From: a virus
Taxonomy: Duplodnaviria; Caudoviricetes
IMG/VR virus record: IMGVR_UViG_3300025778_000032
Span: 1 to 41,523 of that record
Reading direction: 5' to 3' (one strand)
Length of the DNA: 41,523 bases
A program made the position numbers and the translations under genes. Positions 12,534-41,070 of the stretch are shown here, piece after piece (the stretch's first letter is position 1; each line of letters opens with the position of its first letter). A model generated the notes under the pieces. It was not told the DNA's origin, searched no databases, and saw nothing but the letters and a program-made list of their open reading frames with translations.

Positions 12534-13022
12534 ATGACTCATTACATTTCAACAGTAGATACGGCAAAGCACATCCGTAAGGCTTTGAAGTTGAATTTTC
12601 CAAATACCAAGTTTTCGGTTCGTTCCGATATTTACAGCGGCGGGTCATCGATCAATGTTTCTTGGACGGATGGAGAATTCGAAAAAGAAGTTGCAAAGGT
12701 TGTTAAATTTTATGAGGGTGCGTCTTTTGATGGTCAGATCGATTTGAAGTCTTACCACACCACAACTTTTGCGGTTGAAGGTCAACCAACTGAAGTACAT
12801 TTTGGCGCTGATTATGTATTTACTCACCGCGATGTCTCTCCAGAATACAAGGCTCAATTGATCGAGAAGTTTGAAGAGATTTCGGGCGAAAAGTACGAAG
12901 ATGAAAAAAGTTACCCTTCAGAAAAGTTTGATTTTGTACGAGGGGTTCCCACCGCTTACGGTTGCCAGATTATTCACAAGATGTCTTACGAATTTGCACC
13001 TAAGCAATTAGTCTCCGCTTAA
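12534..13022 (+). CDS. LPD29-like (large polyvalent protein-associated domain) protein
   Basis: TAKHIRKALK..FP.TKFSVRS..YSGGSSINVSWTDG...FDGQID. Confidence 0.7.
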   Translation: MTHYISTVDTAKHIRKALKLNFPNTKFSVRSDIYSGGSSINVSWTDGEFEKEVAKVVKFYEGASFDGQIDLKSYHTTTFAVEGQPTEVHFGADYVFTHRDVSPEYKAQLIEKFEEISGEKYEDEKSYPSEKFDFVRGVPTAYGCQIIHKMSYEFAPKQLVSA

Positions 13023-29040: not shown

Positions 29041-30648
29041 ATGGCTGACAAGAATGAACACGCGCCACTGACTAGCGATGCCATCGGACAAGGTGGCAAC
29101 GTAGATCGTTTTGATGTCAATGAAGGTATCAACTTTCCAACAGATACAAACGTTCCAGGGTCGGCTGGTGCGACTATTGCCAATCGTTTCGATGAAAAGA
29201 TTATTTTCGATGTTGAATATGCGACATCAGGTTTACAGCGTGCAGGCGGATTTATTTCCGATGACTTCATTCCTGCCTTGCGTGGCGTTAATGGTCGTCG
29301 TACTTACCGCGAAATGTCTGACAACGATCCAATCGTCGGCGGCGTCATGTCTGCCTATCGTCGTGTGCTATCTCAACTCAATTACTATTTCGATCCTGCC
29401 GATAAATCAGTTGAAGCGCACCAAATCCTCGAATTCGTTGAAGAGGCTTGGAACGATATGCGTAAGCCTTGGGACAACACCGTTTCGGCTATCGCCACAA
29501 ATCTAATTTATGGGTGGTCTCTGTTCGAGATTCTGTTCAAGAAGCGTGAAGGCTATAACCGCAACTCTCGTCTTTCATCTAAGTACGATGACGGCAAATG
29601 GGGATGGCACGATCTAGTTATCCGCTCACAGGAAACAATCTTGCGCTGGGAGATCGATCAATACGGCTCATATGGCGATGGCATTATCGCCTACCAGATG
29701 GTTGACCCATCGGGCGCGGGTCTCTTGCGTATCCCACGCGCTAAATTCTTATTGTTCACGGTTGAAGATTACAAGGAATCACCAGAGGGTCGCTCAATCT
29801 TGCGTAACGCTTACGTGCCTTACTACTATAAGAAGCGCATTCAGGAACTCCAAGCCATTGGTATCGAGCGCGATCTCGCTGGTTTCCCAGTAGTCACAGT
29901 TCCAGCAGAATGGATGACTTCAGACGCTCCAGCAAACGTGAAGCAGTCAGTCAACTCTCTTAAGCAGTTCGTATCAAACGTAAAGCGCAACTCCCAAGAG
30001 GGCGCCGTATTGCCGATCATGTACGATGAAAATGGCAATCAACTGATTAAGTTCGAACTCCTTACTTCAGGCGGTTCACGTCAACTTGATATCGACGCCG
30101 CTCTGAAGCGTTACGACGATGCTATTGCCATCTCACTGCTCGCAGGATTCTTGACCCTCGGACATGATGGAACAGGCTCGCTCGCTCTAGGCGTATCAAA
30201 GACAGATTTATGGCTTATGGCTATTCAGGCTATGGGTCGTGGAATTTGCGACGTAATCAATAAGGAACTTATTCCTCAAATTCTCCGTATTAACGGAATG
30301 GATGACTCACTTGCGCCAAAACTCACATTCGGTAATATCTCCGACGATGATCTCGCGCCGATATTTACAGCAATCGCAGGCATGGCAAAGGCTGGCGTCA
30401 TTACTCCAGATAATCCTCTTGAGGATTGGATTCGTGAGTCAATGGGTGCACCTGCTCAAGAGAACCCTGTTACAGATGAAGAGCGAACGGCAACTGCTAC
30501 GTCTTCATCAACTCCAGACTCTAAGGCAACTCCAAAGGCTCCAGATGCAGGCAAAGTTGCCCAACAAACCGCCACAAGTGAAGCGAAATCTTCAGATGCT
30601 CCGACAGATGAGAAAGACGGCGAAACCACTTACTCAACGAAGAAGTAA
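29041..30648 (+). CDS. Portal protein (DUF935 / Mu gp29-like)
   Basis: LRGVNGRRTYREMSDNDP, YGWSLFE, IRSQETI.RW, PEGRSILRNAY, IGIERDLAGFPV; follows terL. Confidence 0.88.
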   Translation: MADKNEHAPLTSDAIGQGGNVDRFDVNEGINFPTDTNVPGSAGATIANRFDEKIIFDVEYATSGLQRAGGFISDDFIPALRGVNGRRTYREMSDNDPIVGGVMSAYRRVLSQLNYYFDPADKSVEAHQILEFVEEAWNDMRKPWDNTVSAIATNLIYGWSLFEILFKKREGYNRNSRLSSKYDDGKWGWHDLVIRSQETILRWEIDQYGSYGDGIIAYQMVDPSGAGLLRIPRAKFLLFTVEDYKESPEGRSILRNAYVPYYYKKRIQELQAIGIERDLAGFPVVTVPAEWMTSDAPANVKQSVNSLKQFVSNVKRNSQEGAVLPIMYDENGNQLIKFELLTSGGSRQLDIDAALKRYDDAIAISLLAGFLTLGHDGTGSLALGVSKTDLWLMAIQAMGRGICDVINKELIPQILRINGMDDSLAPKLTFGNISDDDLAPIFTAIAGMAKAGVITPDNPLEDWIRESMGAPAQENPVTDEERTATATSSSTPDSKATPKAPDAGKVAQQTATSEAKSSDAPTDEKDGETTYSTKK

Positions 30649-30651
30649 GCG

Positions 30652-32634
30652 ATGAGGGTCTATCGCAAAGCGAAGGATAAGAGCAAGAAGCCCACTAAGC
30701 CACGGGTGAGTAAAGGAACGCGTCAACCCGCGAAACCTTTAACTCCTGTCGAACAGCAGGTTTCTACTCATGTCGCGGATACCTTGGTCACGCTACGTGC
30801 AGCAGTTGGCAGCGAAGCAGTACAAACGGCTATAGCGAGCGGTCACGTCAATACGTCTACTGATTCGTTTCCTTGGAACATTTTTGACACTCAGTTAATG
30901 GCGGTGGCTGATCCAATTGCTGAATTAACACGCAGGTCGCTAGTCATTCCTCACCTCATGCCTAAGTCAGCGGTGATCCAAACCAATTTCAACCACCTCG
31001 ACCCACGAGTAGCAATGAGCGCACGCACGCAGGCGTCAAAACTTTCTGCTGCTATGACTAAAGAGCAATACGCCAAAGTTCGCACGATTATCGGCAATGG
31101 CGTAGCAAAGGGCGATACGGTCAAGCAGATTTCATCTTCCTTGCGAAACCATATTGGACTGTCCGCTCGTCAAGATGCTCAAATGACTTCAGCCGTATTG
31201 GACGCTACTCAATCGGGAATCGATGCAGGGCTAACTGGCGAAGAGTTAATGGCTCAAGTTCAAAATACAGCGGACTCTCTTTACAGCCGTCTCATCAATG
31301 TCAGGGCTAATATGATTGCCCGTACTGAAACAATGCAGGCACAGAATTCAGGTCTACTGATCGGGATACAGCAGGCAGTCGAAGACCCACAGTCGAGCGT
31401 CGACAACACTTACCTCAAGCGATGGATTGCCACAGATGACGAACGCACGTGTGAAACTTGCGGGGCGCTAGATGGTACTGAAGTTCCATTAGACCAAAAC
31501 TTTTCAACTGACAATGGCGATGAGATCGGCTATCCGCTTGAGGATGGCTCAACGCCTCACCCTAACTGTCGCTGCACTGTAGGCATAGTTCCTCCAGATA
31601 CAAATATCAATGATTACCTCAACCAAGATACTCAAGATGCTACGGCGTCAGATGTAGTCCCAACCGATTCAGCGGATATGGTCGATATCGCCGCGTCATT
31701 AAAGCCAAGCCAAGACATCATAAACATGGCTCTGCAAATGTTTAACAAGGAATTCAACCCAGATCAGCCACGTGATGACCACGGGCGTTGGACTTCTGGC
31801 GGGTTCACAGGGGATCAACTTGCCGCGCACCAAGAAAAATATTATGAAACTTATGGACAAGACAGATATGGGCAACTGGCTGGAATAACTAAAGAGCAAT
31901 TTCAAGCCATTAAGGGATATACAAGCAATGGCTATAAAGACGTCAATGGTTATCTACGCACTGGCGCTCCAGTTGTGCCAGATAGCGGGAAATATCCTGC
32001 CGTAGAAGTTTATTCAGCCGTTTATTCTAAAATTGTAGATTCGCTCTCAGGTGAAAGCGTGCTCCCTCAAAGCCTAACTAACGCGATCGATGAGGCTGGA
32101 GGAATTGACAATCTTGATTTTGATTTTGAAAATATTGCGAAAGCATACGTAAAGAGCAACCCAGACGAAGCAATCCAAATGTACATAGATCAGAAATCGG
32201 CACCATTAGATAAAATTGTCTCCAATCTTGATTCGCTTATTGCTACTGCTCCATCTATGGGAGACGCCACGCTTTACCGCGTTGTCGATAACAGCGTTTT
32301 GGACAAACTCAGCGTTGGAAGCATAATGACCGATAAGGGCTACACGTCTACGACGACTACTGACATAACTCATGAATCGAATTTGTCGACAAGAATTGGT
32401 TTGGGTTCCATCAGTAATTCAGTCGATACGGTCGCAATCATCCAACCTAATCCTTCAGGTAATAACCCAGCGTTAGGCGTACAGCAGTTATACGTGGCGA
32501 CTACTTCTGATTCAGCACTTTCTGCAAACGAGCAAGAAGTTCTACTCCCACGCGATACCTCTTTGAAGTTTATGGGATATCAGAATAACCTTGGTACTCA
32601 GGCTAAGGTCGCTATATTTCAAAGGGTGGGATAA
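30652..32634 (+). CDS. MuF (Mu gpF / SPP1 gp7-like) minor head protein fused to C-terminal ADP-ribosyltransferase
   Basis: RANMIARTE, KRWIATDDERTCETC..LDG, PHPNCRC; then YTSNGYKDVNGYLR, LYRVV, DKGYTSTT, EQEVLLPR (R-S-ExE). Confidence 0.88.
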   Translation: MRVYRKAKDKSKKPTKPRVSKGTRQPAKPLTPVEQQVSTHVADTLVTLRAAVGSEAVQTAIASGHVNTSTDSFPWNIFDTQLMAVADPIAELTRRSLVIPHLMPKSAVIQTNFNHLDPRVAMSARTQASKLSAAMTKEQYAKVRTIIGNGVAKGDTVKQISSSLRNHIGLSARQDAQMTSAVLDATQSGIDAGLTGEELMAQVQNTADSLYSRLINVRANMIARTETMQAQNSGLLIGIQQAVEDPQSSVDNTYLKRWIATDDERTCETCGALDGTEVPLDQNFSTDNGDEIGYPLEDGSTPHPNCRCTVGIVPPDTNINDYLNQDTQDATASDVVPTDSADMVDIAASLKPSQDIINMALQMFNKEFNPDQPRDDHGRWTSGGFTGDQLAAHQEKYYETYGQDRYGQLAGITKEQFQAIKGYTSNGYKDVNGYLRTGAPVVPDSGKYPAVEVYSAVYSKIVDSLSGESVLPQSLTNAIDEAGGIDNLDFDFENIAKAYVKSNPDEAIQMYIDQKSAPLDKIVSNLDSLIATAPSMGDATLYRVVDNSVLDKLSVGSIMTDKGYTSTTTTDITHESNLSTRIGLGSISNSVDTVAIIQPNPSGNNPALGVQQLYVATTSDSALSANEQEVLLPRDTSLKFMGYQNNLGTQAKVAIFQRVG

Positions 32635-32735
32635 TGAGTAGATTCGTCACAAAACTAGATGAAGTAACCATTACCGACACGATTCCCGATAAAAAGGAAG
32701 ATCAACCAGCGAAAACGAAAGACGAGAACAAATGA
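32634..32735 (+). CDS. 33-aa peptide coupled to MuF-ART (not in ORF track)
   Basis: TAATG and ATGA overlaps; MSRFVTKLDEVTITDTIPDKKEDQPAKTKDENK. Confidence 0.55.
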   Translation: MSRFVTKLDEVTITDTIPDKKEDQPAKTKDENK

Positions 32736-35221
32736 CAATCGACGCTCAGTTCCTAGCCACTTTCGCTAAAACCTTAGACCCAGAAGAGCGCACTCAGTTT
32801 TTCCTCGATCTCATGAGCGGTGATCTCGACTTTGCCAAGTTCAATGACAATCATGACGACAAGGGAAGATTTGCTAGTGGCGATGGGTCTGGTAATGCTC
32901 TTGTAATTCCCGAAAACGGATGGTTTTCACAACATAATTCAGTATCAGCCACCTATCCCCACGTAGGTCTTTCCGATAAAGCAAAAGATATTGCCTCCCG
33001 TATTGGTAATGTTAAAACTGAAGTAAAAAATGAAAATGGCGTTAAGACCACAAATAGCACAGCCACGTACATGACTAAAGATGGTCGAATTATGAATATG
33101 ACTTTAGTTGAAACGAACGAAGGGAATCAAGGCAATAACAGTCATTTATTGGAAGGCAACGTATCTGTTGAACAAGACGGAAACCGCGCTAACTTGACGT
33201 ATCACACGTTGAGAGATGACTTTAATCCTCTTTCCACGCCAGCCAGCCTTGTCGCAAGAATTGGTTCGTCTTTTTCTCATACTGGTCTAGGCACGGCGAT
33301 GCTTGAATATGCCCGCTCTGTTTCTGAATATCCAATTCTGCATTCAACAAAATTAAGCACTGAAGGTCAAGCCTTTGCCTCTACCACAAAAGGATTATTC
33401 CAAAAGTTTAACGAAAACCACGACGAGAAAGGTCGGTTCGCCCCGTCTGATAATTCAGGATCAACCGCACCTGCCGATTACCGAATGCAGCACCAAGCGC
33501 CTACCCGCGCTGATGATTTTGGCTCTCCTGCCACGAACATCGAAGAGATGATGCCCAACTTTTACGACAATCCAAAAATGTATGGATCGAGTTACGACAA
33601 GGCTGACCAAGAATCTCGAAATGCAATCATGGCTATCAAAGACAAGCCAGATGCTCAGGTCACGATTTATCGAGCCGTCCCTAGTGACGTCAAGGGAATT
33701 AACCAAGGCGATTGGGTAACCCTTTCCCCCACTTATGCCAACGAGCACAATCAAAGCAATCTCAACGGCGAGGGTCACGTAATTAGCCAGACGATCCCAG
33801 CAAGAGATTTATGGTTCGACGGCGACAGCGTTAATGAATTTGGATATGACCCTCAAGGTAATGGCGCAATTGCTAAAGCATTGTTCCTTAAATACAACCC
33901 AGACCAGCCTAGAGACCCAAATGGGCGTTTTGCGTCAGGAGATGGCATATCTAGTGGTCAAGCAGGCGATCTAGCCTCACAAGCCATGCAGGGCGGTTTT
34001 TCCTATAACCCTACAACTCACGCGGCACCTACAACTGGCTACATGGTCGCACGCGTGGGCGCAACAGTTGACGTACCAGCAGGTAATTTGCAAGAAGCAA
34101 AAAATGGGCTAAAGTCGTTCGTGGACAGCCACATGGCAATGTTCGCGGCTGACCCAAATCTCCACATCGGAGGATGGGTTGCCGATGGCAGGCTATATAT
34201 CGAACCGTCGGATAATGTACAAAGTCTGGATCATGCAACGTCGCTAGGCAGCGCAAGAGATCAGATCGCAATTTGGGATGTAGCCAATGGACAAGAGATA
34301 AATACAGGAGGCTCTGGTGGACAAAATGCAAAAGCAGGAAGCAACGACCCTAACTTCGGCAAAGCGTTACATGGCGATTCCCGAAAATTGGGGAACGATG
34401 ACGGAGGATCAGAAGGATCAGTGGGCGGAGGATTTCTTGGTCAAGTCTGGGATATTCTCAGCGCCAGAGAAGGCGTAGCCGAAACTTTAGGTTTCGTTAA
34501 AGAATTTAATCCCGAACAAGCGCGTGACGATCATGGACGCTGGACTTCAGATGGTTCGTCGAGCAGTGGAGCAACCGCTGGTAGCCTAGCCAAAGGTGTA
34601 TACGACCGCGCTAAAGCCCTAGAACCAAGCCTTACTAAGACGATGCAAGGTCTTGCCGACAAGCACGGCGCCACTCTCGCAGGGCTAAAATATGCAGTCA
34701 AAGAGCAAGGGTCGCTGACAAACAAAATTCAAGATGTTGCCGACAAGCAATATCACGGTGACGTGCAAGAAGCGGCGCAACACATATCAGACGCCAACCG
34801 CTACACAATGCTTGCAGACCCAAGTACTTATATCGATACTGCCAGACAAGTCACGCAAGATTTGCAACAGCAAGGGTTCGATGCCAGAGTAAAAAACTAT
34901 TGGACAGACGGCTCAAATTACAAAGGCATTAACGTCGCCCTTACCGATCCTCAAGGCAATCAGATCGAACTTCAATTTCACACGCCAGAATCGCTAGCAG
35001 TCAAGGAAGGCGATAATCACCCGATCTATAAGGAATACAGCCTTATGACCGAGGCTCAACAGGCTACGCCTTACGGCAAAGACCTCAATCAGCAAATGGT
35101 CAATAACGTGGCTAATTTAGTAACCCCTGCCAATGTTCAGTCATTCGGTACTCTCAAGATCGGCAAGAGTTTGTTCAATATTGATATACACGCTACACTC
35201 AACTTAGGAGGTAGAAAATGA
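32732..35221 (+). CDS. Multidomain (polyvalent) protein: GNAT-like, ART-like, unknown/SAM-lyase-like and RelA/SpoT-like domains, each preceded by a conserved tag
   Basis: Tags at 32831, 33398, 33884, 34493; GLGTAML...HS..LS.EG.AFA; TIYRAVP...GDWVTLS..YA...E.GY; GGW..DG.LYIE...QIAIWD; K..SL..KI...D..RYT...YKGIN...ELQFHT. Confidence 0.75.
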   Translation: MTIDAQFLATFAKTLDPEERTQFFLDLMSGDLDFAKFNDNHDDKGRFASGDGSGNALVIPENGWFSQHNSVSATYPHVGLSDKAKDIASRIGNVKTEVKNENGVKTTNSTATYMTKDGRIMNMTLVETNEGNQGNNSHLLEGNVSVEQDGNRANLTYHTLRDDFNPLSTPASLVARIGSSFSHTGLGTAMLEYARSVSEYPILHSTKLSTEGQAFASTTKGLFQKFNENHDEKGRFAPSDNSGSTAPADYRMQHQAPTRADDFGSPATNIEEMMPNFYDNPKMYGSSYDKADQESRNAIMAIKDKPDAQVTIYRAVPSDVKGINQGDWVTLSPTYANEHNQSNLNGEGHVISQTIPARDLWFDGDSVNEFGYDPQGNGAIAKALFLKYNPDQPRDPNGRFASGDGISSGQAGDLASQAMQGGFSYNPTTHAAPTTGYMVARVGATVDVPAGNLQEAKNGLKSFVDSHMAMFAADPNLHIGGWVADGRLYIEPSDNVQSLDHATSLGSARDQIAIWDVANGQEINTGGSGGQNAKAGSNDPNFGKALHGDSRKLGNDDGGSEGSVGGGFLGQVWDILSAREGVAETLGFVKEFNPEQARDDHGRWTSDGSSSSGATAGSLAKGVYDRAKALEPSLTKTMQGLADKHGATLAGLKYAVKEQGSLTNKIQDVADKQYHGDVQEAAQHISDANRYTMLADPSTYIDTARQVTQDLQQQGFDARVKNYWTDGSNYKGINVALTDPQGNQIELQFHTPESLAVKEGDNHPIYKEYSLMTEAQQATPYGKDLNQQMVNNVANLVTPANVQSFGTLKIGKSLFNIDIHATLNLGGRK

Positions 35222-35445
35222 AAGAAACTAAGTGGTTTCTAGGTCAAAATTCAAAGCGCGTCTTTTCCGTCTACAAGGCAGACTTCGAAGGTTCGACTAT
35301 TACGAATCAACAGCAATGGTTAATTCCAAATAAAGATACTGGCTGGCGTAAAACTAATCAGGTTATGGATTGGTATTTCGTCGGAGAAGATGATTTGTAC
35401 CCTTGCACAGAGGATGAAGCAAAGAAGTATCTCAGCGCGAGTTAA
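35218..35445 (+). CDS. Small protein coupled to RelA/SpoT-like domain (candidate antitoxin)
   Basis: AGGAGG SD, ATGA overlap; ends TEDEAKKYL. Confidence 0.6.
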   Translation: MKETKWFLGQNSKRVFSVYKADFEGSTITNQQQWLIPNKDTGWRKTNQVMDWYFVGEDDLYPCTEDEAKKYLSAS

Positions 35446-35504
35446 CGCGAAATTGTTCCCTCTATTGCCCTATCCTTTCACTATCCAATTCGAGAGGGAA
35501 AGCA

Positions 35505-36941
35505 ATGACCGAGTTCGCCAAGAGAGACTTCACACAAGACGAGCGCGACGCGTTAGCCGCTAAAGGTCATGCGATGCCCGATGGATCGTATCCAATCTCG
35601 ACAGTAGCCGATCTTGATAATGCTGTACAGGCTTTTGGTCGTGCAAAGAATCCAACTGCAACCAAGAAGCACATCATTTCTCGCGCTCGCGCACTCAACG
35701 CTGTAGACCGTCTGCCGCTTAAGTGGAACGTATCTCAGGAAAAGACAAAGGCTAGCGAAATTTCAGATGCACTTGGTATTTCTACCGAGCCTGCAAAATT
35801 GAACGATAAGCACATCCCAGCAATTGACGATATGCACGACGCTATCGGCGCAACCAAGGTCGACCAGCAAGGTAAAGGCAACTACGCGACAAGCACTCAC
35901 CTTTCAGCCGCTCAACGCCATCTCAAGGATGCAAAGTCTGTACTTGATACGAAGGCACTCAACTCTGACACAAAACACGTTCTCGCTAAGGCTGCACTTG
36001 GTAAGGCTAGCCAATCTTTAACTCACGCTACCCGTGAGGCATCGGCACCAGATAAGAGCGCGATCCACGATCACAATGAAAATTTGCGTGCATTTGCTGC
36101 AAACCCTCCTGCCGATTTTGCTAAGTACAACGATAATCATGGCGAAGGCGGACGTTTTACTTCTGTCGATGGAACCACTGGCGTTCCTGTCAATGGGGGT
36201 CATTCTGGCTCACTTAATGCCACAGTTAACGCTATGCGTGATGTTCACCGCACCTATGCCGATAAAGTTCGCGCAACGCAGATGTCTGGCAAGCCAATGT
36301 CAGCGGATATGCTCGATACGGCTCAAACCAAAAATGATGCTACGGGTCATCTCGCGGATGCCATCACTAGCCTTCAACACGATGACGCAGAAGCGGCACA
36401 CGAATCCTTGCGTAATGCTGCTAGCACGCTTTCTGGAGATAAGGCGTTTTCATCCCACGCTGACACCGTTAACGGCATCGCAGACACTCTAGGCAAGAAG
36501 ATCGGCAAGTCGCTTTCCCTTAATTTTGCGGAAATCGATTTTGCAAAGATGAATGAAAATCATGATGAAAAGGGACGATTTGCCGCTGGAGATGCAATTG
36601 CTAATTCCGCCGCTGGACTTTCTGTCCATGCCGAGACAAAGGCAAAGCAATTCGCTGACCACTATACGGCTACAAATGACAAGCAGGCTTTCCACGCCGC
36701 CAACAAGATGGCAATGGCTAAGATTTATGCTGATGCTGCACAAAAGGCAGCCGAAAGTGGAAATCTGAAAGATGCCGCCGCTAATTTAGCAAACGCCCAT
36801 CAGACTGCTTACTCAGCCGCTAAAAACTTGGAGTCATCTAGCAACCCAGACACCAATCGTTTATCAGAAAAGTTAACGATGCCGTATGGTCGCGCTCAAG
36901 CAGAAGCACAAAGCGCGGTTACACAACACAACGCTTGGTAA
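35505..36941 (+). CDS. Multidomain head-module protein (DUF6582-like N-terminus, two tagged Ala/His-rich helical domains)
   Basis: AMPDGSYPI...DL.NAVQAFGRA...HI..RA.AL; tags at 36117 and 36540. Confidence 0.7.
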   Translation: MTEFAKRDFTQDERDALAAKGHAMPDGSYPISTVADLDNAVQAFGRAKNPTATKKHIISRARALNAVDRLPLKWNVSQEKTKASEISDALGISTEPAKLNDKHIPAIDDMHDAIGATKVDQQGKGNYATSTHLSAAQRHLKDAKSVLDTKALNSDTKHVLAKAALGKASQSLTHATREASAPDKSAIHDHNENLRAFAANPPADFAKYNDNHGEGGRFTSVDGTTGVPVNGGHSGSLNATVNAMRDVHRTYADKVRATQMSGKPMSADMLDTAQTKNDATGHLADAITSLQHDDAEAAHESLRNAASTLSGDKAFSSHADTVNGIADTLGKKIGKSLSLNFAEIDFAKMNENHDEKGRFAAGDAIANSAAGLSVHAETKAKQFADHYTATNDKQAFHAANKMAMAKIYADAAQKAAESGNLKDAAANLANAHQTAYSAAKNLESSSNPDTNRLSEKLTMPYGRAQAEAQSAVTQHNAW

Positions 36942-36950
36942 AGGATAGGC

Positions 36951-37328
36951 ATGAGCCTTAAATACAACAAGGTCAAAGGGAGCAAGTTCGAAACTGATCT
37001 TGTTGACTATTTGCGCGAGAAGTTCCCCGATCATTCGGCGAATATTCAGCGTATGCGCCTGTCTGGAAACGCGGATCAAGGCGACATAATCGCCACTCTT
37101 CCCCTCGGCAACCATATACGCCACATCATCATCGAGGCTAAAAACGTTCAAGAGTATGCCCTGTCTCAATTCGTAGCAGAGGTAACGGTCGAGGTCGAGA
37201 ATTGGACACGCGCCGTAAAGTCATCAGGCAAGGCGTCTGGAATCGTCATCATTAAGCGCCGCAATAAACCTATTGGGCAGTCTTATGTCATTCACACACT
37301 CGATTCATTTTTGGAACTACTTGGATGA
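36951..37328 (+). CDS. Holliday junction resolvase-like PD-(D/E)xK nuclease
   Basis: NKVKGSKFE..LVDYL...DQGDI...IEAKN...IIKRR. Confidence 0.8.
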   Translation: MSLKYNKVKGSKFETDLVDYLREKFPDHSANIQRMRLSGNADQGDIIATLPLGNHIRHIIIEAKNVQEYALSQFVAEVTVEVENWTRAVKSSGKASGIVIIKRRNKPIGQSYVIHTLDSFLELLG

Positions 37329-38131
37329 GCCAACTTATAGCCGACATCGGATTAAAAGATTTCTTATTCCTTAAGTACAACGAAAACCATGACGCAAAAG
37401 GTCGTTTTGCCACGGCTGATGGCGTGGGCGGTAGTGGGCTGTCTCTTCGAGAAATGAACAGAATTTCTAGCCGTAGCGATAAATACAAAAGCAAAGTTTA
37501 CGCAGCCGAACATTCAGTAAGAGATGGTCAGCAAGAAATCCGAGGAACAATACCCAAGCCAGAAGCCCCTGCTTATCCAAGAGAAGCCATAGCCGCTGCT
37601 CGTGCCAATGGCGATCTTGCTACTTCTTATAGATTGTCTGACCAATACCAAAAAGATTACAACAAATATTCACGCGATTTCAGCAAGTACCAAAATGATT
37701 ACCAAGTCGTGAATAAGCAATCTGATCTCGCACAGCAATACTTGGATGGTACTAAGGCTGGGGTATCAAATTACGTTAATGCCGTCACGGGGCAAGATTG
37801 GTTTAAGCAAGCCTATACTGATGGGGCAACAATAGGAATGCCCGACGTAAAAATTACGAACGTCAAGGGATATGCTGGTCAATATACATTCGGAACGGAT
37901 GGCGCTAACCGAATTTCGATTAACGCTCCTTACGCCACAAACGAACCTACGATCCTTCACGAAATCGCTCATTATGCTCAAACGGTTAGCGCCACTTATT
38001 CTTATGAGGCTCATGGCGTAGGCTTTGCTCAAATTAACCTTCATATAACGGACAATGTAATCGGCGGAGCGCAAGCCAACAGACTTGCGGATGCCTACCT
38101 AGCAAACGGGGTGCCAATTGCCACAAAGTAA
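37325..38131 (+). CDS. Tagged protein with zincin-like metallopeptidase domain
   Basis: Tag at 37367; TILHEIAH...AHGVGF. Confidence 0.7.
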   Translation: MSQLIADIGLKDFLFLKYNENHDAKGRFATADGVGGSGLSLREMNRISSRSDKYKSKVYAAEHSVRDGQQEIRGTIPKPEAPAYPREAIAAARANGDLATSYRLSDQYQKDYNKYSRDFSKYQNDYQVVNKQSDLAQQYLDGTKAGVSNYVNAVTGQDWFKQAYTDGATIGMPDVKITNVKGYAGQYTFGTDGANRISINAPYATNEPTILHEIAHYAQTVSATYSYEAHGVGFAQINLHITDNVIGGAQANRLADAYLANGVPIATK

Positions 38132-39254
38132 AGAATTCACAATTACTGACCCAATCCCAGACCCAGAATTGGTTCAAGAGCCGATCGACCCAGAATTTCT
38201 CAAGTCGTCCCCAATCTCTGTGGCGTACCTTCAATACAATAAATCCAATTATGGATATACGGTCAAGTCATTAGACAGCGAGACGATCCATGAATGCTCT
38301 ACGCGCTATGACGCAATGAAGACCTTGCGAGATGAAGTGCTCAAATCGATTTCTGCTGGAAGTGTCCATGTCGATACTACGGGCTGGAAGGCACGCGATC
38401 TACGCGATAATTTCGAGAAGGCTATGGAAAATGATGGCGTCGGTGAATTAGGAAAGAAGCACGACCTACTCCACGAATTGTCAGGCGATGACGTGACCAA
38501 GGATCAGGCGTTATTGCATCACTTCATTACGTCCAAATCATCCGAGATGGGTGAACCTATCGATTGCGATGGCGGCGCTCTTTCTCAGCCTGTCATTTTG
38601 GATTACAAGCGCGATGTAGATATCAATGAAGCGATCTCAGAAGGATTGGTTTTAGAGGCAGACGGCAAGGAAGCAATCAAAGACGGCGTTACCAAGGCTG
38701 ACTTAGCGACGCTTATGGACAGCGACGGCGTTTACATGGCAATCATTCCTAAAGAAACTAACGATATTGCCAAGGCGTTAGGAATTGAAAATGAAAAGAT
38801 TTTTTTGCCATTCCTAGATTTCTCTAAGGCTGATACGCCAAAAGTTCTCACTGAAGTTGTCGATGATGGTAAACCAGATCAATACACGCTTGCTCCGTAC
38901 TACGTACCTAATCAATTAGATGGTCATGATGAATGGGTAGAAACCCGCGATTTGGAAAAGGCTGTTAATGAATGGTCGCTGTTTTCGCCTAACCGAAATG
39001 TTTTCTTGCAACACAATGAAGACATCGTGGCTGGAACTTGGACTCAACTTATCGTCATGCCGTGGGAATTCGATGCTGAACTAAAGCAAGCCGATGGTTC
39101 GACAAAAGTTCACCACTTCCCTAAAGGAACTGTTTTGATTGGCGTAGTTTGGAAAAATTGGGCATGGGAAATGATTCTCGATGGGCGAATTGCTGGAATG
39201 TCTATGGGCGGAATGGCTCAAGAAAAATCAGAAACTCCGCCTCCATCGAATTAA
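38118..39254 (+). CDS. Prohead protease, XkdF-like (C-terminal domain) with long N-terminal extension
   Basis: YTLAPYYVPNQLDGHDEW...LEKA...LQHN...KGTVLIGVVW...W..I..G.I.G.SMGG. Confidence 0.8.
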   Translation: MPQSKEFTITDPIPDPELVQEPIDPEFLKSSPISVAYLQYNKSNYGYTVKSLDSETIHECSTRYDAMKTLRDEVLKSISAGSVHVDTTGWKARDLRDNFEKAMENDGVGELGKKHDLLHELSGDDVTKDQALLHHFITSKSSEMGEPIDCDGGALSQPVILDYKRDVDINEAISEGLVLEADGKEAIKDGVTKADLATLMDSDGVYMAIIPKETNDIAKALGIENEKIFLPFLDFSKADTPKVLTEVVDDGKPDQYTLAPYYVPNQLDGHDEWVETRDLEKAVNEWSLFSPNRNVFLQHNEDIVAGTWTQLIVMPWEFDAELKQADGSTKVHHFPKGTVLIGVVWKNWAWEMILDGRIAGMSMGGMAQEKSETPPPSN

Positions 39255-39331: not shown

Positions 39332-39697
39332 ATGACTGTCGTAGTACCTACTACCTTCTCACTTGTTATGGCAGGTGGCGTCGACTGGCAGATCGGTTTT
39401 ACTCTTTTTCAAATTGTTGACGGCGTTAAAGAGCCGATTGACCTCACGGGCTACACAGCAAAACTGCAAATGCGATTGGCTTATGACTCTCCCGATGCTG
39501 TTCTAACGCTGACTGATGGTGCTGGAATTACTTTAGGCGGGGCGGCTGGAACAGTTCTCGTCCATGCAACTTATGAGCAGGTCAACGCAATCCCAGCAGA
39601 AACTTACGAGATAGGTCTTCAAATTATGTCGAGCGGGGAAGTGAAATACTCACTTCTTGAGCAGCAAATCGACAAACTTGAAACAGCGGTGCAGTAA
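39332..39697 (+). CDS. Virion structural adaptor (BppU-N-like)
   Basis: PIDLTGYTAKLQMR...LTLT...GITLGGAAGTV; precedes fibre gene. Confidence 0.6.
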   Translation: MTVVVPTTFSLVMAGGVDWQIGFTLFQIVDGVKEPIDLTGYTAKLQMRLAYDSPDAVLTLTDGAGITLGGAAGTVLVHATYEQVNAIPAETYEIGLQIMSSGEVKYSLLEQQIDKLETAVQ

Positions 39698-41070
39698 TGA
39701 CCGAATATTTCGAAGTTGTCATCGATCCATCAAATTTTGACGTTACGGTTTCACCTACCCAGACCATTATCGAACTCACCGACGTCGGTTTTCAGGGCGC
39801 TCAAGGCGCTCAAGGCGTCCAAGGGACTCAAGGAACTCAAGGAATTCAAGGCTTGCAAGGTACAACAGGCTCACAGGGCGCTACTGGAACCCAAGGCGCT
39901 TTAGGAACCCAAGGCAGCATTGGAATTACTGGCGCTCAGGGCACTCAGGGCACTCAGGGAACTCAGGGAAATACTGGAACTCAAGGAGCAGTTGGAACTC
40001 AAGGTGCAATCGGCGCAACTGGCTCGCAAGGAACTCAGGGTGCTATCGGCACTCAAGGCGCGGTTGGATCGCAAGGATCGATTGGAGCAACTGGCGCACA
40101 GGGTACGCAAGGAATTACAGGTTCCCAAGGTGCGATTGGAACTCAGGGCGCAATTGGCACTACGGGTGCACAAGGAACTCAAGGTACAGTCGGAGCGATT
40201 GGAACTCAAGGCGCTCAAGGAACGCAGGGTTCAATAGGAACTCAAGGTTTCACTGGCGCCCAAGGTACGGTCGGTACGCAAGGTACGACAGGTACGCAGG
40301 GAACGCAGGGATTACAAGGTCAAGCGATCCAAGGCGCACAAGGCACAACTGGCTCAACGGGTGCTGGCGGAACTCTTGCTTACTACGGTTCTTTCTACGA
40401 CACGACGACACAAACTGCCACAAGTGCTAACACCGCCTATGTCGTAGGAATCAATACAGTTGCGGAATCAAATGGTTTAAGTATCGTTAGCGGAAATCAA
40501 ATAAAGTTTGCTAACGCTGGAACTTACAAGATCGATGTATCGCTTCAATTCTACGTTTCTTACAATTCTGGAACCGCTAACTTTTGGTTGCGTAAAAATG
40601 GCACTGACTTAATTGATACGAATAGCGAAGTAACTTTTTCTAACCAACTTCCGTATCAACTTGGTAACGCGCCGTTTGAAATGACTCTTAACGCTAATGA
40701 TTACATCCAAATTGTTTGGGCGGCCAATACTGCATCGTCACAAATCGTGGCTCAAACTGCTACAACTACGCCTTACGTTTCTCCTGCCGTTCCAAGCGTT
40801 ATTGTCGCCGTAAGCCAAGTTGCTTATGCAATCCAAGGAACGCAAGGAATCCAAGGAACGCAAGGCGTGCAAGGTTTTGGCTACGCTCAACTTCAAGGAA
40901 CCCAAGGAACACAAGGTATTCAAGGTACCCAAGGTATTCAAGGTATTCAATCAACCCAAGGAACAACTGGACTTCAAGGTCTGCAAGGACTTCAGGGCGT
41001 ACAAGGACTACTTAACACGGTAATCTATGATTCTGACCAAGGCGTTATTTCACAACAGATGTTCAGTTAA
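39697..41070 (+). CDS. Collagen-like fibre protein with C1q/TNF-like head domain
   Basis: Long G-x-Q/G-x-x triplet tracts flanking YYGSFYDTTTQTA...AGTYKI..SLQF...WLRKNG. Confidence 0.8.
   Translation: MTEYFEVVIDPSNFDVTVSPTQTIIELTDVGFQGAQGAQGVQGTQGTQGIQGLQGTTGSQGATGTQGALGTQGSIGITGAQGTQGTQGTQGNTGTQGAVGTQGAIGATGSQGTQGAIGTQGAVGSQGSIGATGAQGTQGITGSQGAIGTQGAIGTTGAQGTQGTVGAIGTQGAQGTQGSIGTQGFTGAQGTVGTQGTTGTQGTQGLQGQAIQGAQGTTGSTGAGGTLAYYGSFYDTTTQTATSANTAYVVGINTVAESNGLSIVSGNQIKFANAGTYKIDVSLQFYVSYNSGTANFWLRKNGTDLIDTNSEVTFSNQLPYQLGNAPFEMTLNANDYIQIVWAANTASSQIVAQTATTTPYVSPAVPSVIVAVSQVAYAIQGTQGIQGTQGVQGFGYAQLQGTQGTQGIQGTQGIQGIQSTQGTTGLQGLQGLQGVQGLLNTVIYDSDQGVISQQMFS

What the first reader, a model, noticed from the sequence alone, without database searches (positions are those of the whole stretch)
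30652..39254. Candidate system: tagged, protease-processed effector polyproteins in the head module
Seen: eight copies of one peptide tag in four genes, each at the start of a new, unrelated domain: FNKEFNPDQPRDDHGRW (31741), FAKFNDNHDDKGRF (32831), FQKFNENHDEKGRF (33398), FLKYNPDQPRDPNGRF (33884), FVKEFNPEQARDDHGRW (34493), FAKYNDNHGEGGRF (36117), FAKMNENHDEKGRF (36540) and FLKYNENHDAKGRF (37367). Codons differ between copies, so conservation is at protein level. Every copy begins F-x-K, and the cluster lies between the portal and an XkdF-type prohead protease. Known: MuF-toxin fusions and phage polyvalent proteins exist, and T4 packages Alt and internal proteins that its prohead protease matures. 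Inference: F-x-K is a cleavage site and N..D..GR[FW] becomes a shared new N-terminus acting as a capsid-loading or ejection address. That would allow one cassette to package a swappable set of anti-host effectors. I cannot verify from sequence alone that this is undescribed.
Basis: partly seen in the sequence, partly recalled or inferred. Interest (0 to 1): 0.92.

Follow-up and report, generated by a model that had tools for sequence, protein, structure and literature searches.

The report
Cut-and-tag cargo system in phage heads
This phage strings unrelated enzymes into its head-region proteins, each starting with the same short peptide placed right after what is likely the cutting site of its own head protease, so the enzymes are likely packed into the capsid, cut apart and injected with the DNA; the same peptide does this in hundreds of other phages, but no cut or binding partner has been measured.

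Summary
All eight tags are real (8 found, 0.003 expected by chance), conserved as protein, and sit at module boundaries between a Mu-type portal and an XkdF protease. The tag occurs in hundreds of viral contigs. The residue before it follows the head-protease clade in 60 of 66 phage groups (K, R, N or D). With tags masked, the same motif is enriched in scaffold/capsid N-termini and precedes the protease domain, so F-x-K is likely this phage's cut site. Cargo: VIP2-type ART on MuF, GNAT-like, ART-fold, unknown-fold, Tas1/SAS-like and SprT modules, reshuffled at tag boundaries in relatives. Unlike T4's targeting sequence, the tag would stay on the cargo; I favour a retention/ejection anchor, untested. 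New here: a conserved small gene nested in the +1 frame of the 829-aa gene (likely antidote); the protease lacks its last strand, which relatives carry on the scaffold; cultured cluster H mycobacteriophages carry the tag on a homolog of a proven Patience virion protein; orphan tagged toxin-immunity pairs sit in alphaproteobacterial chromosomes. No paper or family found for the tag. The scan noted this system before on other DNA. New variant of known head-cargo systems.

The parts
29041..30648 (+). Portal protein, Mu type; no tag
   Evidence: PF06074 E 1.4e-40
30652..32634 (+). 660-aa MuF (aa 182-310) + tag + VIP2/Alt-type ADP-ribosyltransferase (aa ~392-642)
   Evidence: PF04233 E 7.6e-17, PF03496 E 1.7e-11; phrog_802
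31741..31791 (+). F-x-K site + tag 1
32732..35221 (+). 829-aa polyprotein: conserved 36-aa leader, then four tagged modules M1-M4
   Evidence: second-sample contigs
32831..32872 (+). F-x-K site + tag 2, ahead of M1 (GNAT-like; indirect, through homolog P0079)
33398..33439 (+). F-x-K site + tag 3, ahead of M2 (predicted ADP-ribosyltransferase fold; PHROG label 'ParB C-terminal')
   Evidence: best Z 5.4, most listed hits ART-superfamily
33884..33931 (+). F-x-K site + tag 4, ahead of M3 (124-aa domain, confident model, no clear known fold)
34317..34478 (+). Nested 53-codon gene in the +1 frame of the M3-M4 linker, AGGAG ribosome site 6 nt upstream; likely antidote or chaperone of M3
   Evidence: same small ORF follows M3 homologs in the +1 frame in L196, L316, L229, L058, L221, L143
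34493..34543 (+). F-x-K site + tag 5, ahead of M4 (RelA/SpoT-like small alarmone synthetase domain, aa ~614-804)
   Evidence: SaSAS 8vx3 E 3.3e-11, Tas1 6ox6 E 4e-4
35218..35445 (+). 75-aa ORF overlapping the stop of the 829-aa gene; candidate immunity protein of M4 (position only)
   Evidence: no family hit
35505..36941 (+). 478-aa protein: F-x-K at aa 4-6, DUF6582-like domain, then helical modules of unknown function, two of them tagged
36117..36158 (+). F-x-K site + tag 6 (variant with G for D)
36540..36581 (+). F-x-K site + tag 7
36951..37328 (+). RusA-like PD-(D/E)XK nuclease, untagged
37325..38131 (+). 268-aa protein: 17-aa leader, tag 8, SprT-like HExxH metallopeptidase
   Evidence: PF10263 E 5.5e-6; TIGR04338
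37367..37408 (+). F-x-K site + tag 8
38118..39254 (+). XkdF-type prohead protease (domain aa 252-369; H299 and S362 match the recalled catalytic pair); untagged F-x-K at aa 27, 99, 235; last beta-strand of the fold missing
   Evidence: PF14550 32.6 bits, cut-off 24
38820..38828 (+). Untagged F-S-K just ahead of the protease domain, at the position where K-clade relatives have hydrophobic-x-K and R-clade relatives E-x-R

Best explanation
The four genes encode chains of unrelated enzyme modules, each beginning F-x-K plus a conserved 11-13 residue tag, that are likely drawn into the prohead, likely cut after the lysine by the phage's own XkdF-type head protease, and likely injected with the DNA as separate tagged effectors. 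Shown: tags, their place at module boundaries, module shuffling at those boundaries, and the match between the pre-tag motif and the protease lineage. Inferred: (1) loading, through the MuF fusion or an N-terminal leader that is cut off; (2) cutting at F-x-K during head maturation; (3) the tag, left as the new N-terminus on a Gly/Ser tether, holds each freed module inside the head, most likely on the DNA or inner head surface, so that it is not lost with the propeptides and leaves with the genome; (4) small partner genes (nested 53-codon ORF, 75-aa ORF) neutralise toxic modules in the producing cell.
For: Pre-tag residue matches the protease clade's commonest residue in 60 of 66 phage groups (permutation mean 43.2, maximum 48 of 20,000): XkdF 22/22 K, second clade 14/17 K, an HK97-type clade 7/7 R, DUF2213-like clades 4/4 D and 6/7 N. 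The scan patterns did not include that residue. With tags masked, the same motif is enriched in the protease tail plus the first 150 aa of the next two ORFs: K 272/206.6 and 198/120.6, E-x-R 44/13.0, N 87/44.8; off-diagonal ratios 0.67-1.26, other ORFs 0.84-1.13. The protease domain itself is preceded by that motif. HK97's protease cuts K103/S104 (PMC10275583, passage) and SPN3US/T4 proteases cut P3-x-P1 motifs in ejected head proteins (PMC10052503, PMC9026906, passages). Relatives recombine the modules at tags: P0002 M2+M4, P0008 M2+the MuF-type ART, P0043 M3, P0003 portal+M2+M3+M4. Of 208 tagged proteins 61 are fused to portal, MuF or protease; 58 of 75 viral loci of 15 kb or more hold a head marker. 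G+S is 43% in the 10 residues after tags against 15% overall. Predator gp14 starts with the tag and is 50% identical (E 1e-50) to Patience gp18, listed as a mass-spectrometry virion protein (PMC4324244 Table 1).
Against: No cleavage, packaging or ejection is measured for any tagged protein. The 66 groups fall into about five lineages, so the permutation p overstates independence, and the tree is the quick one. 56 of 125 tagged groups had no protease found and were not tested. The first motif test, with one hydrophobic class for all clades, supported only K (1.64x) and not R (0.65x), D or N; the classes were then redefined from the pre-tag residues, and D (68/59.3) and the mixed S78 group (73/71.4) still show nothing. 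Patience gp18 itself lacks the tag, so that support is indirect. 23 of 48 GTDB loci lack head markers and several are ordinary chromosomal sites. The modules are neutral to acidic and the tag is about neutral, which does not favour DNA binding. The scaffold and capsid genes are not in the window, so the cut motif could not be checked on this phage's own capsid.
Confidence: 0.6

Rival explanations
1. The tag is the loading signal itself: it binds the scaffold or prohead core before cutting, like T4's capsid targeting sequence but on the retained side of the cut.
For: 147 of 208 tagged proteins are free-standing; some start with the tag and have no leader (L048, L263; Predator gp14); on homologous bodies it alternates with another N-terminal header found on several Patience virion proteins.
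Against: Modules fused to portal, MuF or protease, and every internal module of a polyprotein, carry their own tag although one signal would load the chain; scaffolds, portals (PF04860, PF06074, PF06381, PF05136) and capsids differ between tagged lineages; a separate conserved leader exists in the 829-aa family.
Confidence: 0.18
2. The tag is a prime-side docking element that makes the protease cut efficiently at module junctions and has no role afterwards.
For: It lies 0-2 residues after the predicted cut in nearly all cases.
Against: The predicted sites in scaffold, capsid and protease have no tag; one tag serves proteases of different clades and P1 residues; it also occurs at untrimmed N-termini.
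Confidence: 0.1
3. The chains are not cut; they are intact polyvalent proteins and the tag is a spacer or interaction loop, the preceding lysine motif being a lineage habit.
For: [quoted passage not shown]
Against: Clade-matched motif before tags, before the protease domain and in scaffold/capsid N-termini.
Confidence: 0.08
4. The tag is only a DNA-level recombination junction for cassette swapping.
For: Modules are exchanged at tags; orphan tagged toxin-immunity pairs resemble polymorphic-toxin cassettes.
Against: 72 of 119 same-residue codon pairs differ within this one genome; the peptide is kept across bacterial phyla and in an archaeal provirus.
Confidence: 0.04

Closest known systems
T4 internal proteins and Alt with the capsid targeting sequence, processed by gp21 (PMC9026906, passages)
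   Same: Non-structural cargo, including an ADP-ribosyltransferase, predicted to be loaded into proheads, trimmed by the head protease at a short motif and ejected.
   Different: T4's conserved sequence is N-terminal to the cut and removed; here the conserved peptide follows the predicted cut, is repeated inside polyproteins, and is shared across unrelated head modules.
MuF polymorphic toxins, including Apk2/IapK (PMC5576092, PMC12226406, PMC3482391, passages)
   Same: MuF fused to a toxin domain in the head cluster; an alarmone-synthetase-like domain followed by a small ORF.
   Different: Only one of the four proteins has MuF; the synthetase sits in a MuF-less polyprotein; the passages read describe no junction tag or protease cut.
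Phage-type polyvalent proteins (PMC5512222, PMC9503650, passages)
   Same: Several unrelated effector domains in one late-gene polypeptide, predicted to be packaged; effectors fused to MuF, portal and head protease.
   Different: Processing was proposed through built-in metallopeptidases; the passages read name no repeated tag or head-protease site.
Pre-toxin junction motifs of Rhs and CdiA toxins (DPxG, VENN; recalled, from no call)
   Same: Short conserved peptide marking where a swappable toxin module starts, with orphan toxin-immunity cassettes.
   Different: Different sequence and delivery route; here the cut would be made in trans by a phage head protease and several modules are chained.

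Membership tests
MuF polymorphic toxin (660-aa protein) | N-terminal MuF domain | tested here: met
   PF04233 62.5 bits, cut-off 29.6
MuF polymorphic toxin (660-aa protein) | C-terminal toxin domain, gene in head cluster | tested here: met
   PF03496 44.2 bits, cut-off 23.4; gene follows the portal
MuF polymorphic toxin (660-aa protein) | Downstream immunity gene; temperate phage | tested here: inconclusive
   Only a 97-nt gap follows the gene; no integrase among the 30 proteins scanned, but the genome is incomplete
Apk2 (p)ppApp synthetase toxin | MuF fused N-terminal to the synthetase | tested here: not met
   Synthetase domain is the last module of the MuF-less 829-aa protein
Apk2 (p)ppApp synthetase toxin | RelA/SpoT-like synthetase domain | tested here: met
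   SaSAS E 3.3e-11, Tas1 E 4e-4
Apk2 (p)ppApp synthetase toxin | Makes (p)ppApp; blocked by IapK | not testable with these tools
   Needs assay; 75-aa ORF has no family hit
Phage polyvalent protein (829-aa protein) | Two or more unrelated effector domains in one late-gene polypeptide | tested here: met
   Four unrelated modules between portal and protease
Phage polyvalent protein (829-aa protein) | Present in virions and injected | not testable with these tools
   Uncultured phage; no proteomics
T4 capsid-targeting-sequence system | Conserved signal N-terminal to the cut and removed on maturation | tested here: not met
   The conserved tag follows the predicted P1 residue
T4 capsid-targeting-sequence system | Cargo trimmed by the prohead protease at a P3-x-P1 motif | tested here: inconclusive
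   Strong comparative support, no measured cut
XkdF-type prohead protease (PF14550) | Profile match above curated cut-off | tested here: met
   32.6 bits, cut-off 24; groups with XkdF clade, support 96
XkdF-type prohead protease (PF14550) | Complete fold, including the last S-x-V-D strand | tested here: inconclusive
   Strand absent from the window; in 16 of 22 XkdF-clade groups it heads a separate scaffold-like ORF, which here would lie outside the window

The most novel reading that the evidence does not exclude
The tag is a portable, lineage-independent address for riding out of a capsid with the genome, read by something all tailed phages share (the DNA or the ejection channel). Phages of many phyla and an archaeal provirus use it with whatever cut site their protease has, and bacteria keep orphan tagged toxin-immunity pairs that hitchhike in phage or phage-derived heads in trans. 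It would be a general protein-delivery code and a sequence handle for finding injected anti-defence enzymes.
Probability: 0.25. Interest if true: 0.92.

Novelty: new variant of a known kind. Interest (0 to 1): 0.72.

Why it matters
How enzymes fused to or encoded beside head genes get packaged, separated and delivered is open for MuF toxins and polyvalent proteins. A tag plus a predictable cut site makes this testable and marks exact module boundaries, so injected effectors of unknown fold (such as M3) can be listed by a simple pattern: about 310 and 290 stored IMG/VR stretches hold two narrow forms. The pre-tag residue also predicts head-protease specificity by clade. Cultured Mycobacterium smegmatis phages of cluster H1 carry the tag, so genetics is possible now. 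If the tag works on a reporter it is a tool for loading proteins into phage heads.

Tried and rejected
No family for the tag: eight 28-aa tag windows gave no NCBIfam hit at E 1 and one Pfam hit at E 0.1 (Big_2; rejected). Literature: ten searches of the held library; none listed a paper describing the tag; the literal-motif search was swamped by unrelated acronyms and is weak; subscription journals and the supplements of PMC5512222 were not seen. The search for related loci found no close viral relative of the protease or the 829-aa protein. The held genome is only the window, so scaffold and capsid were not available. My guess that M3 is a SAM lyase is not supported: best Z 4.0, SAM hydrolase 7ock rank 26 at Z 3.0. 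Foldseek gave no significant hit for M2. Rhodococcus phage E3 shares M1/M2-like domains but no tag. Closest cultured protease relatives (Laroye, Ottawa, ValentiniPuff, B83) show no tag in the head proteins translated. N-degron idea (cut exposing F/Y/W) rejected because many sites have an A, E, D or G spacer, including two in this window. Careful tree did not finish. No RNA holder listed. Complex prediction of M3 with the nested ORF was not available. Capsid comparison with PDB did not locate a cut for the XkdF clade and only loosely for the R clade.
Full report
Observation. The window is part of a tailed phage, probably of Actinobacteria (WhiB gene; closest cultured protease relatives are Arthrobacter and Microbacterium phages at 37-43% identity), held in freshwater metagenome runs. 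After terminase and a Mu-type portal come a 660-aa MuF-ART fusion, an 829-aa protein, a 75-aa ORF, a 478-aa protein, a RusA-like nuclease, a 268-aa SprT-like protein and an XkdF-type protease. All eight tags are at the stated positions. A post hoc regex finds 8 in six frames against 0.003 in shuffles, and 72 of 119 same-residue codon pairs differ. F-x-K is enriched in the four cargo proteins and protease (16 against 4.3; 8 against 3.1 outside tags) but not elsewhere (21 against 22.5). A second sample's contigs confirm the sequence, one spanning 33918-38008 without difference. Scaffold and capsid genes are outside the window, which is all the genome held.

Cargo. The MuF protein ends in a VIP2/Alt-type ART. 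In the 829-aa protein, M1 is GNAT-like on indirect evidence (it matches repeats of P0079, a protein with Pfam GNAT hits). M2 folds confidently (pLDDT 92.7) and most of its listed structural neighbours are ART-superfamily proteins at low scores (best Z 5.4; nothing significant by Foldseek). M3 folds confidently (96.2) but has no clear known fold. M4 is a RelA/SpoT-like synthetase domain (SaSAS E 3.3e-11, Tas1 E 4e-4). The 478-aa protein starts with F-x-K and a DUF6582-like domain followed by helical modules with no relatives in my data. Relatives carry the same modules in other combinations, joined at tags: P0002, P0003, P0008, P0043.

Spread of the tag. In the 337 loci there are 353 distinct tags; the residue before is K in 187, and F at -3 in only 11. 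A looser pattern adds 75 more against about 11 by chance. Of 208 tagged proteins in loci over 3 kb, 147 are free-standing, 28 portal, 15 MuF, 13 protease and 5 MuF+portal fusions; G+S make 43% of the ten residues after the tag. Portals belong to four Pfam families. Head markers from my own limited profile set lie in 58 of 75 viral loci of 15 kb or more and 25 of 48 GTDB loci. Twelve marker-less GTDB loci were listed: most show a leader-K-(A/G)-tag-toxin-like ORF in ordinary chromosomal surroundings, and 2 of the 5 neighbours scanned hit immunity-type or DUF2019 families. The tag is also at the end of the portal of archaeal provirus Pro-Nvie1, ahead of a Rel/Spo-like gene.

The cut site. Of 125 tagged phage groups, 69 had a protease by local profiles; 67 long enough were put on a quick tree with the window's protease and 66 had a scorable pre-tag residue. 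It matches the clade's commonest residue in 60 (permutation mean 43.2, maximum 48): XkdF 22/22 K, a second clade 14/17 K, an HK97-type clade 7/7 R, two DUF2213-like clades (label recalled) 4/4 D and 6/7 N, mixed S78 7/9 K. These are about five lineages, so this is a handful of independent switches. As a separate test I masked tags and counted motifs in protease and scaffold regions. With one hydrophobic class, only K was enriched (584/356; R 11/17, D 20/14.8, N 21/15.6). With classes taken from the pre-tag residues and counted in the protease tail and the next two ORFs, the diagonal is enriched for K (1.32, 1.64), E-x-R (3.39) and N (1.94), not for D (1.15) or the mixed group (1.02); other ORFs give 0.84-1.13. 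The protease domain is itself preceded by hydrophobic-x-K in K clades (F-S-K at aa 235-237 here) and by E-x-R in the R clade. HK97's protease cuts after K103 (PMC10275583) and SPN3US gp245 after A-x-E (PMC10052503). I put the cut-site reading at about 0.8. The window's protease lacks the last strand of the fold; in 16 of 22 XkdF-clade groups this strand heads a separate scaffold-like ORF (also Laroye gp24), which matters for any assay.

What the tag does. It would remain on the cargo, the reverse of T4's targeting sequence (PMC9026906). It is repeated on every module even where a portal or MuF fusion already gives entry, and the 829-aa family has a separate conserved leader before the first site; both point to a job after cutting. 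Cultured phages help: twelve records of cluster H1 mycobacteriophages and Nocardia phage P3.1 have the tag at the very start of basic proteins in the head region. Predator gp14 is 50% identical to Patience gp18, listed as a virion protein by mass spectrometry (PMC4324244 Table 1; supplement not read), which has a different header shared by several Patience virion proteins. The only notable PDB match to a tag profile is a loop of the baseplate hub of phage 7-7-1 (E 0.016), possibly chance. I commit to a retention/ejection anchor (about 0.45 for this step alone); loading signal, protease docking and no-cut readings are the rivals.

Nested gene. A 53-codon ORF at 34317-34478 lies in the +1 frame of the M3-M4 linker, with AGGAG 6 nt upstream formed by the codons ending M3. 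Of 15 other loci with an M3 hit, six have the same small two-helix ORF in the +1 frame (L196, L316, L229, L058, L221, L143), one a diverged form, and two a similar peptide fused in frame. It is likely an antidote carried with the cassette and read through by the polyprotein; binding is untested.

Comparison and novelty. The system works like T4 internal-protein processing and overlaps MuF toxins and polyvalent proteins; the 660-aa protein meets the domain criteria of a MuF toxin, the 829-aa protein those of a polyvalent protein, while Apk2 and T4-CTS membership fail on architecture. I read passages (find mode) of 15 papers: PMC3482391, PMC5512222, PMC5576092, PMC9503650, PMC12226406, PMC10052503, PMC9026906, PMC7150772, PMC12796354, PMC7302621, PMC4324244, PMC12991175, PMC4351075, PMC10275583, PMC5052747; none of the passages describes the tag, ten searches listed no such paper, and Pfam and NCBIfam have no model for it. 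Coverage is limited to open papers. Five earlier notes of this scan describe the same or similar tag-and-cut systems on other genomes; they are not independent support. Verdict: real, a new variant of known head-cargo systems, interest 0.72.

Noticed in passing
window 34317-34478 (+1 frame inside the 829-aa gene); L196:3990-4106, L316:731-853, L229:10425-10553, L221:11001-11141, L058:10138-10272, L143:8869-8979: Conserved nested small gene after M3 homologs, with its ribosome site formed by the last codons of M3; candidate antidote.
   Followed up: partly
window 38118-39254; L223:13285-14397, L191:5722-6852, L465:17436-18278: XkdF-clade proteases are split or permuted: the last strand of the fold heads the scaffold ORF in 16 of 22 groups, or the protease's own N-terminus (L020, phage B83).
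   Followed up: partly
L349, L352, L358, L359, L361, L365, L371, L379, L382, L409 (GTDB Alphaproteobacteria): Orphan leader-tag-toxin-like genes, some with immunity-type neighbours, next to housekeeping genes and away from phage head genes.
   Followed up: partly
L469:7995-8756 (Predator gp14), L339:11246-12699 (Nocardia P3.1), L472:7300-11075 (Patience): The protein annotated 'capsid maturation protease' in cluster H1 phages is a very basic protein starting with the tag, with no Pfam hit; Patience has a family of basic virion proteins with a different shared header.
   Followed up: partly
L471:3903-5267 (phage 7-7-1 gp113, PDB 9RKU chain Af aa 82-96): Tag-like peptide with Gly/Ser tail inserted in the baseplate hub.
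   Followed up: partly
P0051, P0076: A second header type (His-rich, H-x-x-G-x-H-D-Q) follows hydrophobic-x-K in front of the same M1, M2 and M3 modules.
   Followed up: no
window 33461-33865; phrog_2579: The family labelled 'ParB C-terminal domain' (also in cluster E mycobacteriophages) is predicted to have an ADP-ribosyltransferase fold; likely mislabelled.
   Followed up: partly
L340:4429-6445 (Nitrososphaera provirus Pro-Nvie1): Portal ends in a tag and is followed by an overlapping Rel/Spo-like gene.
   Followed up: no
window 39697-41070 and 12534-13022: A collagen-repeat gene follows the protease where scaffold and capsid genes are usual; an LPD29 polyvalent-protein domain gene lies in the early region.
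   Followed up: no
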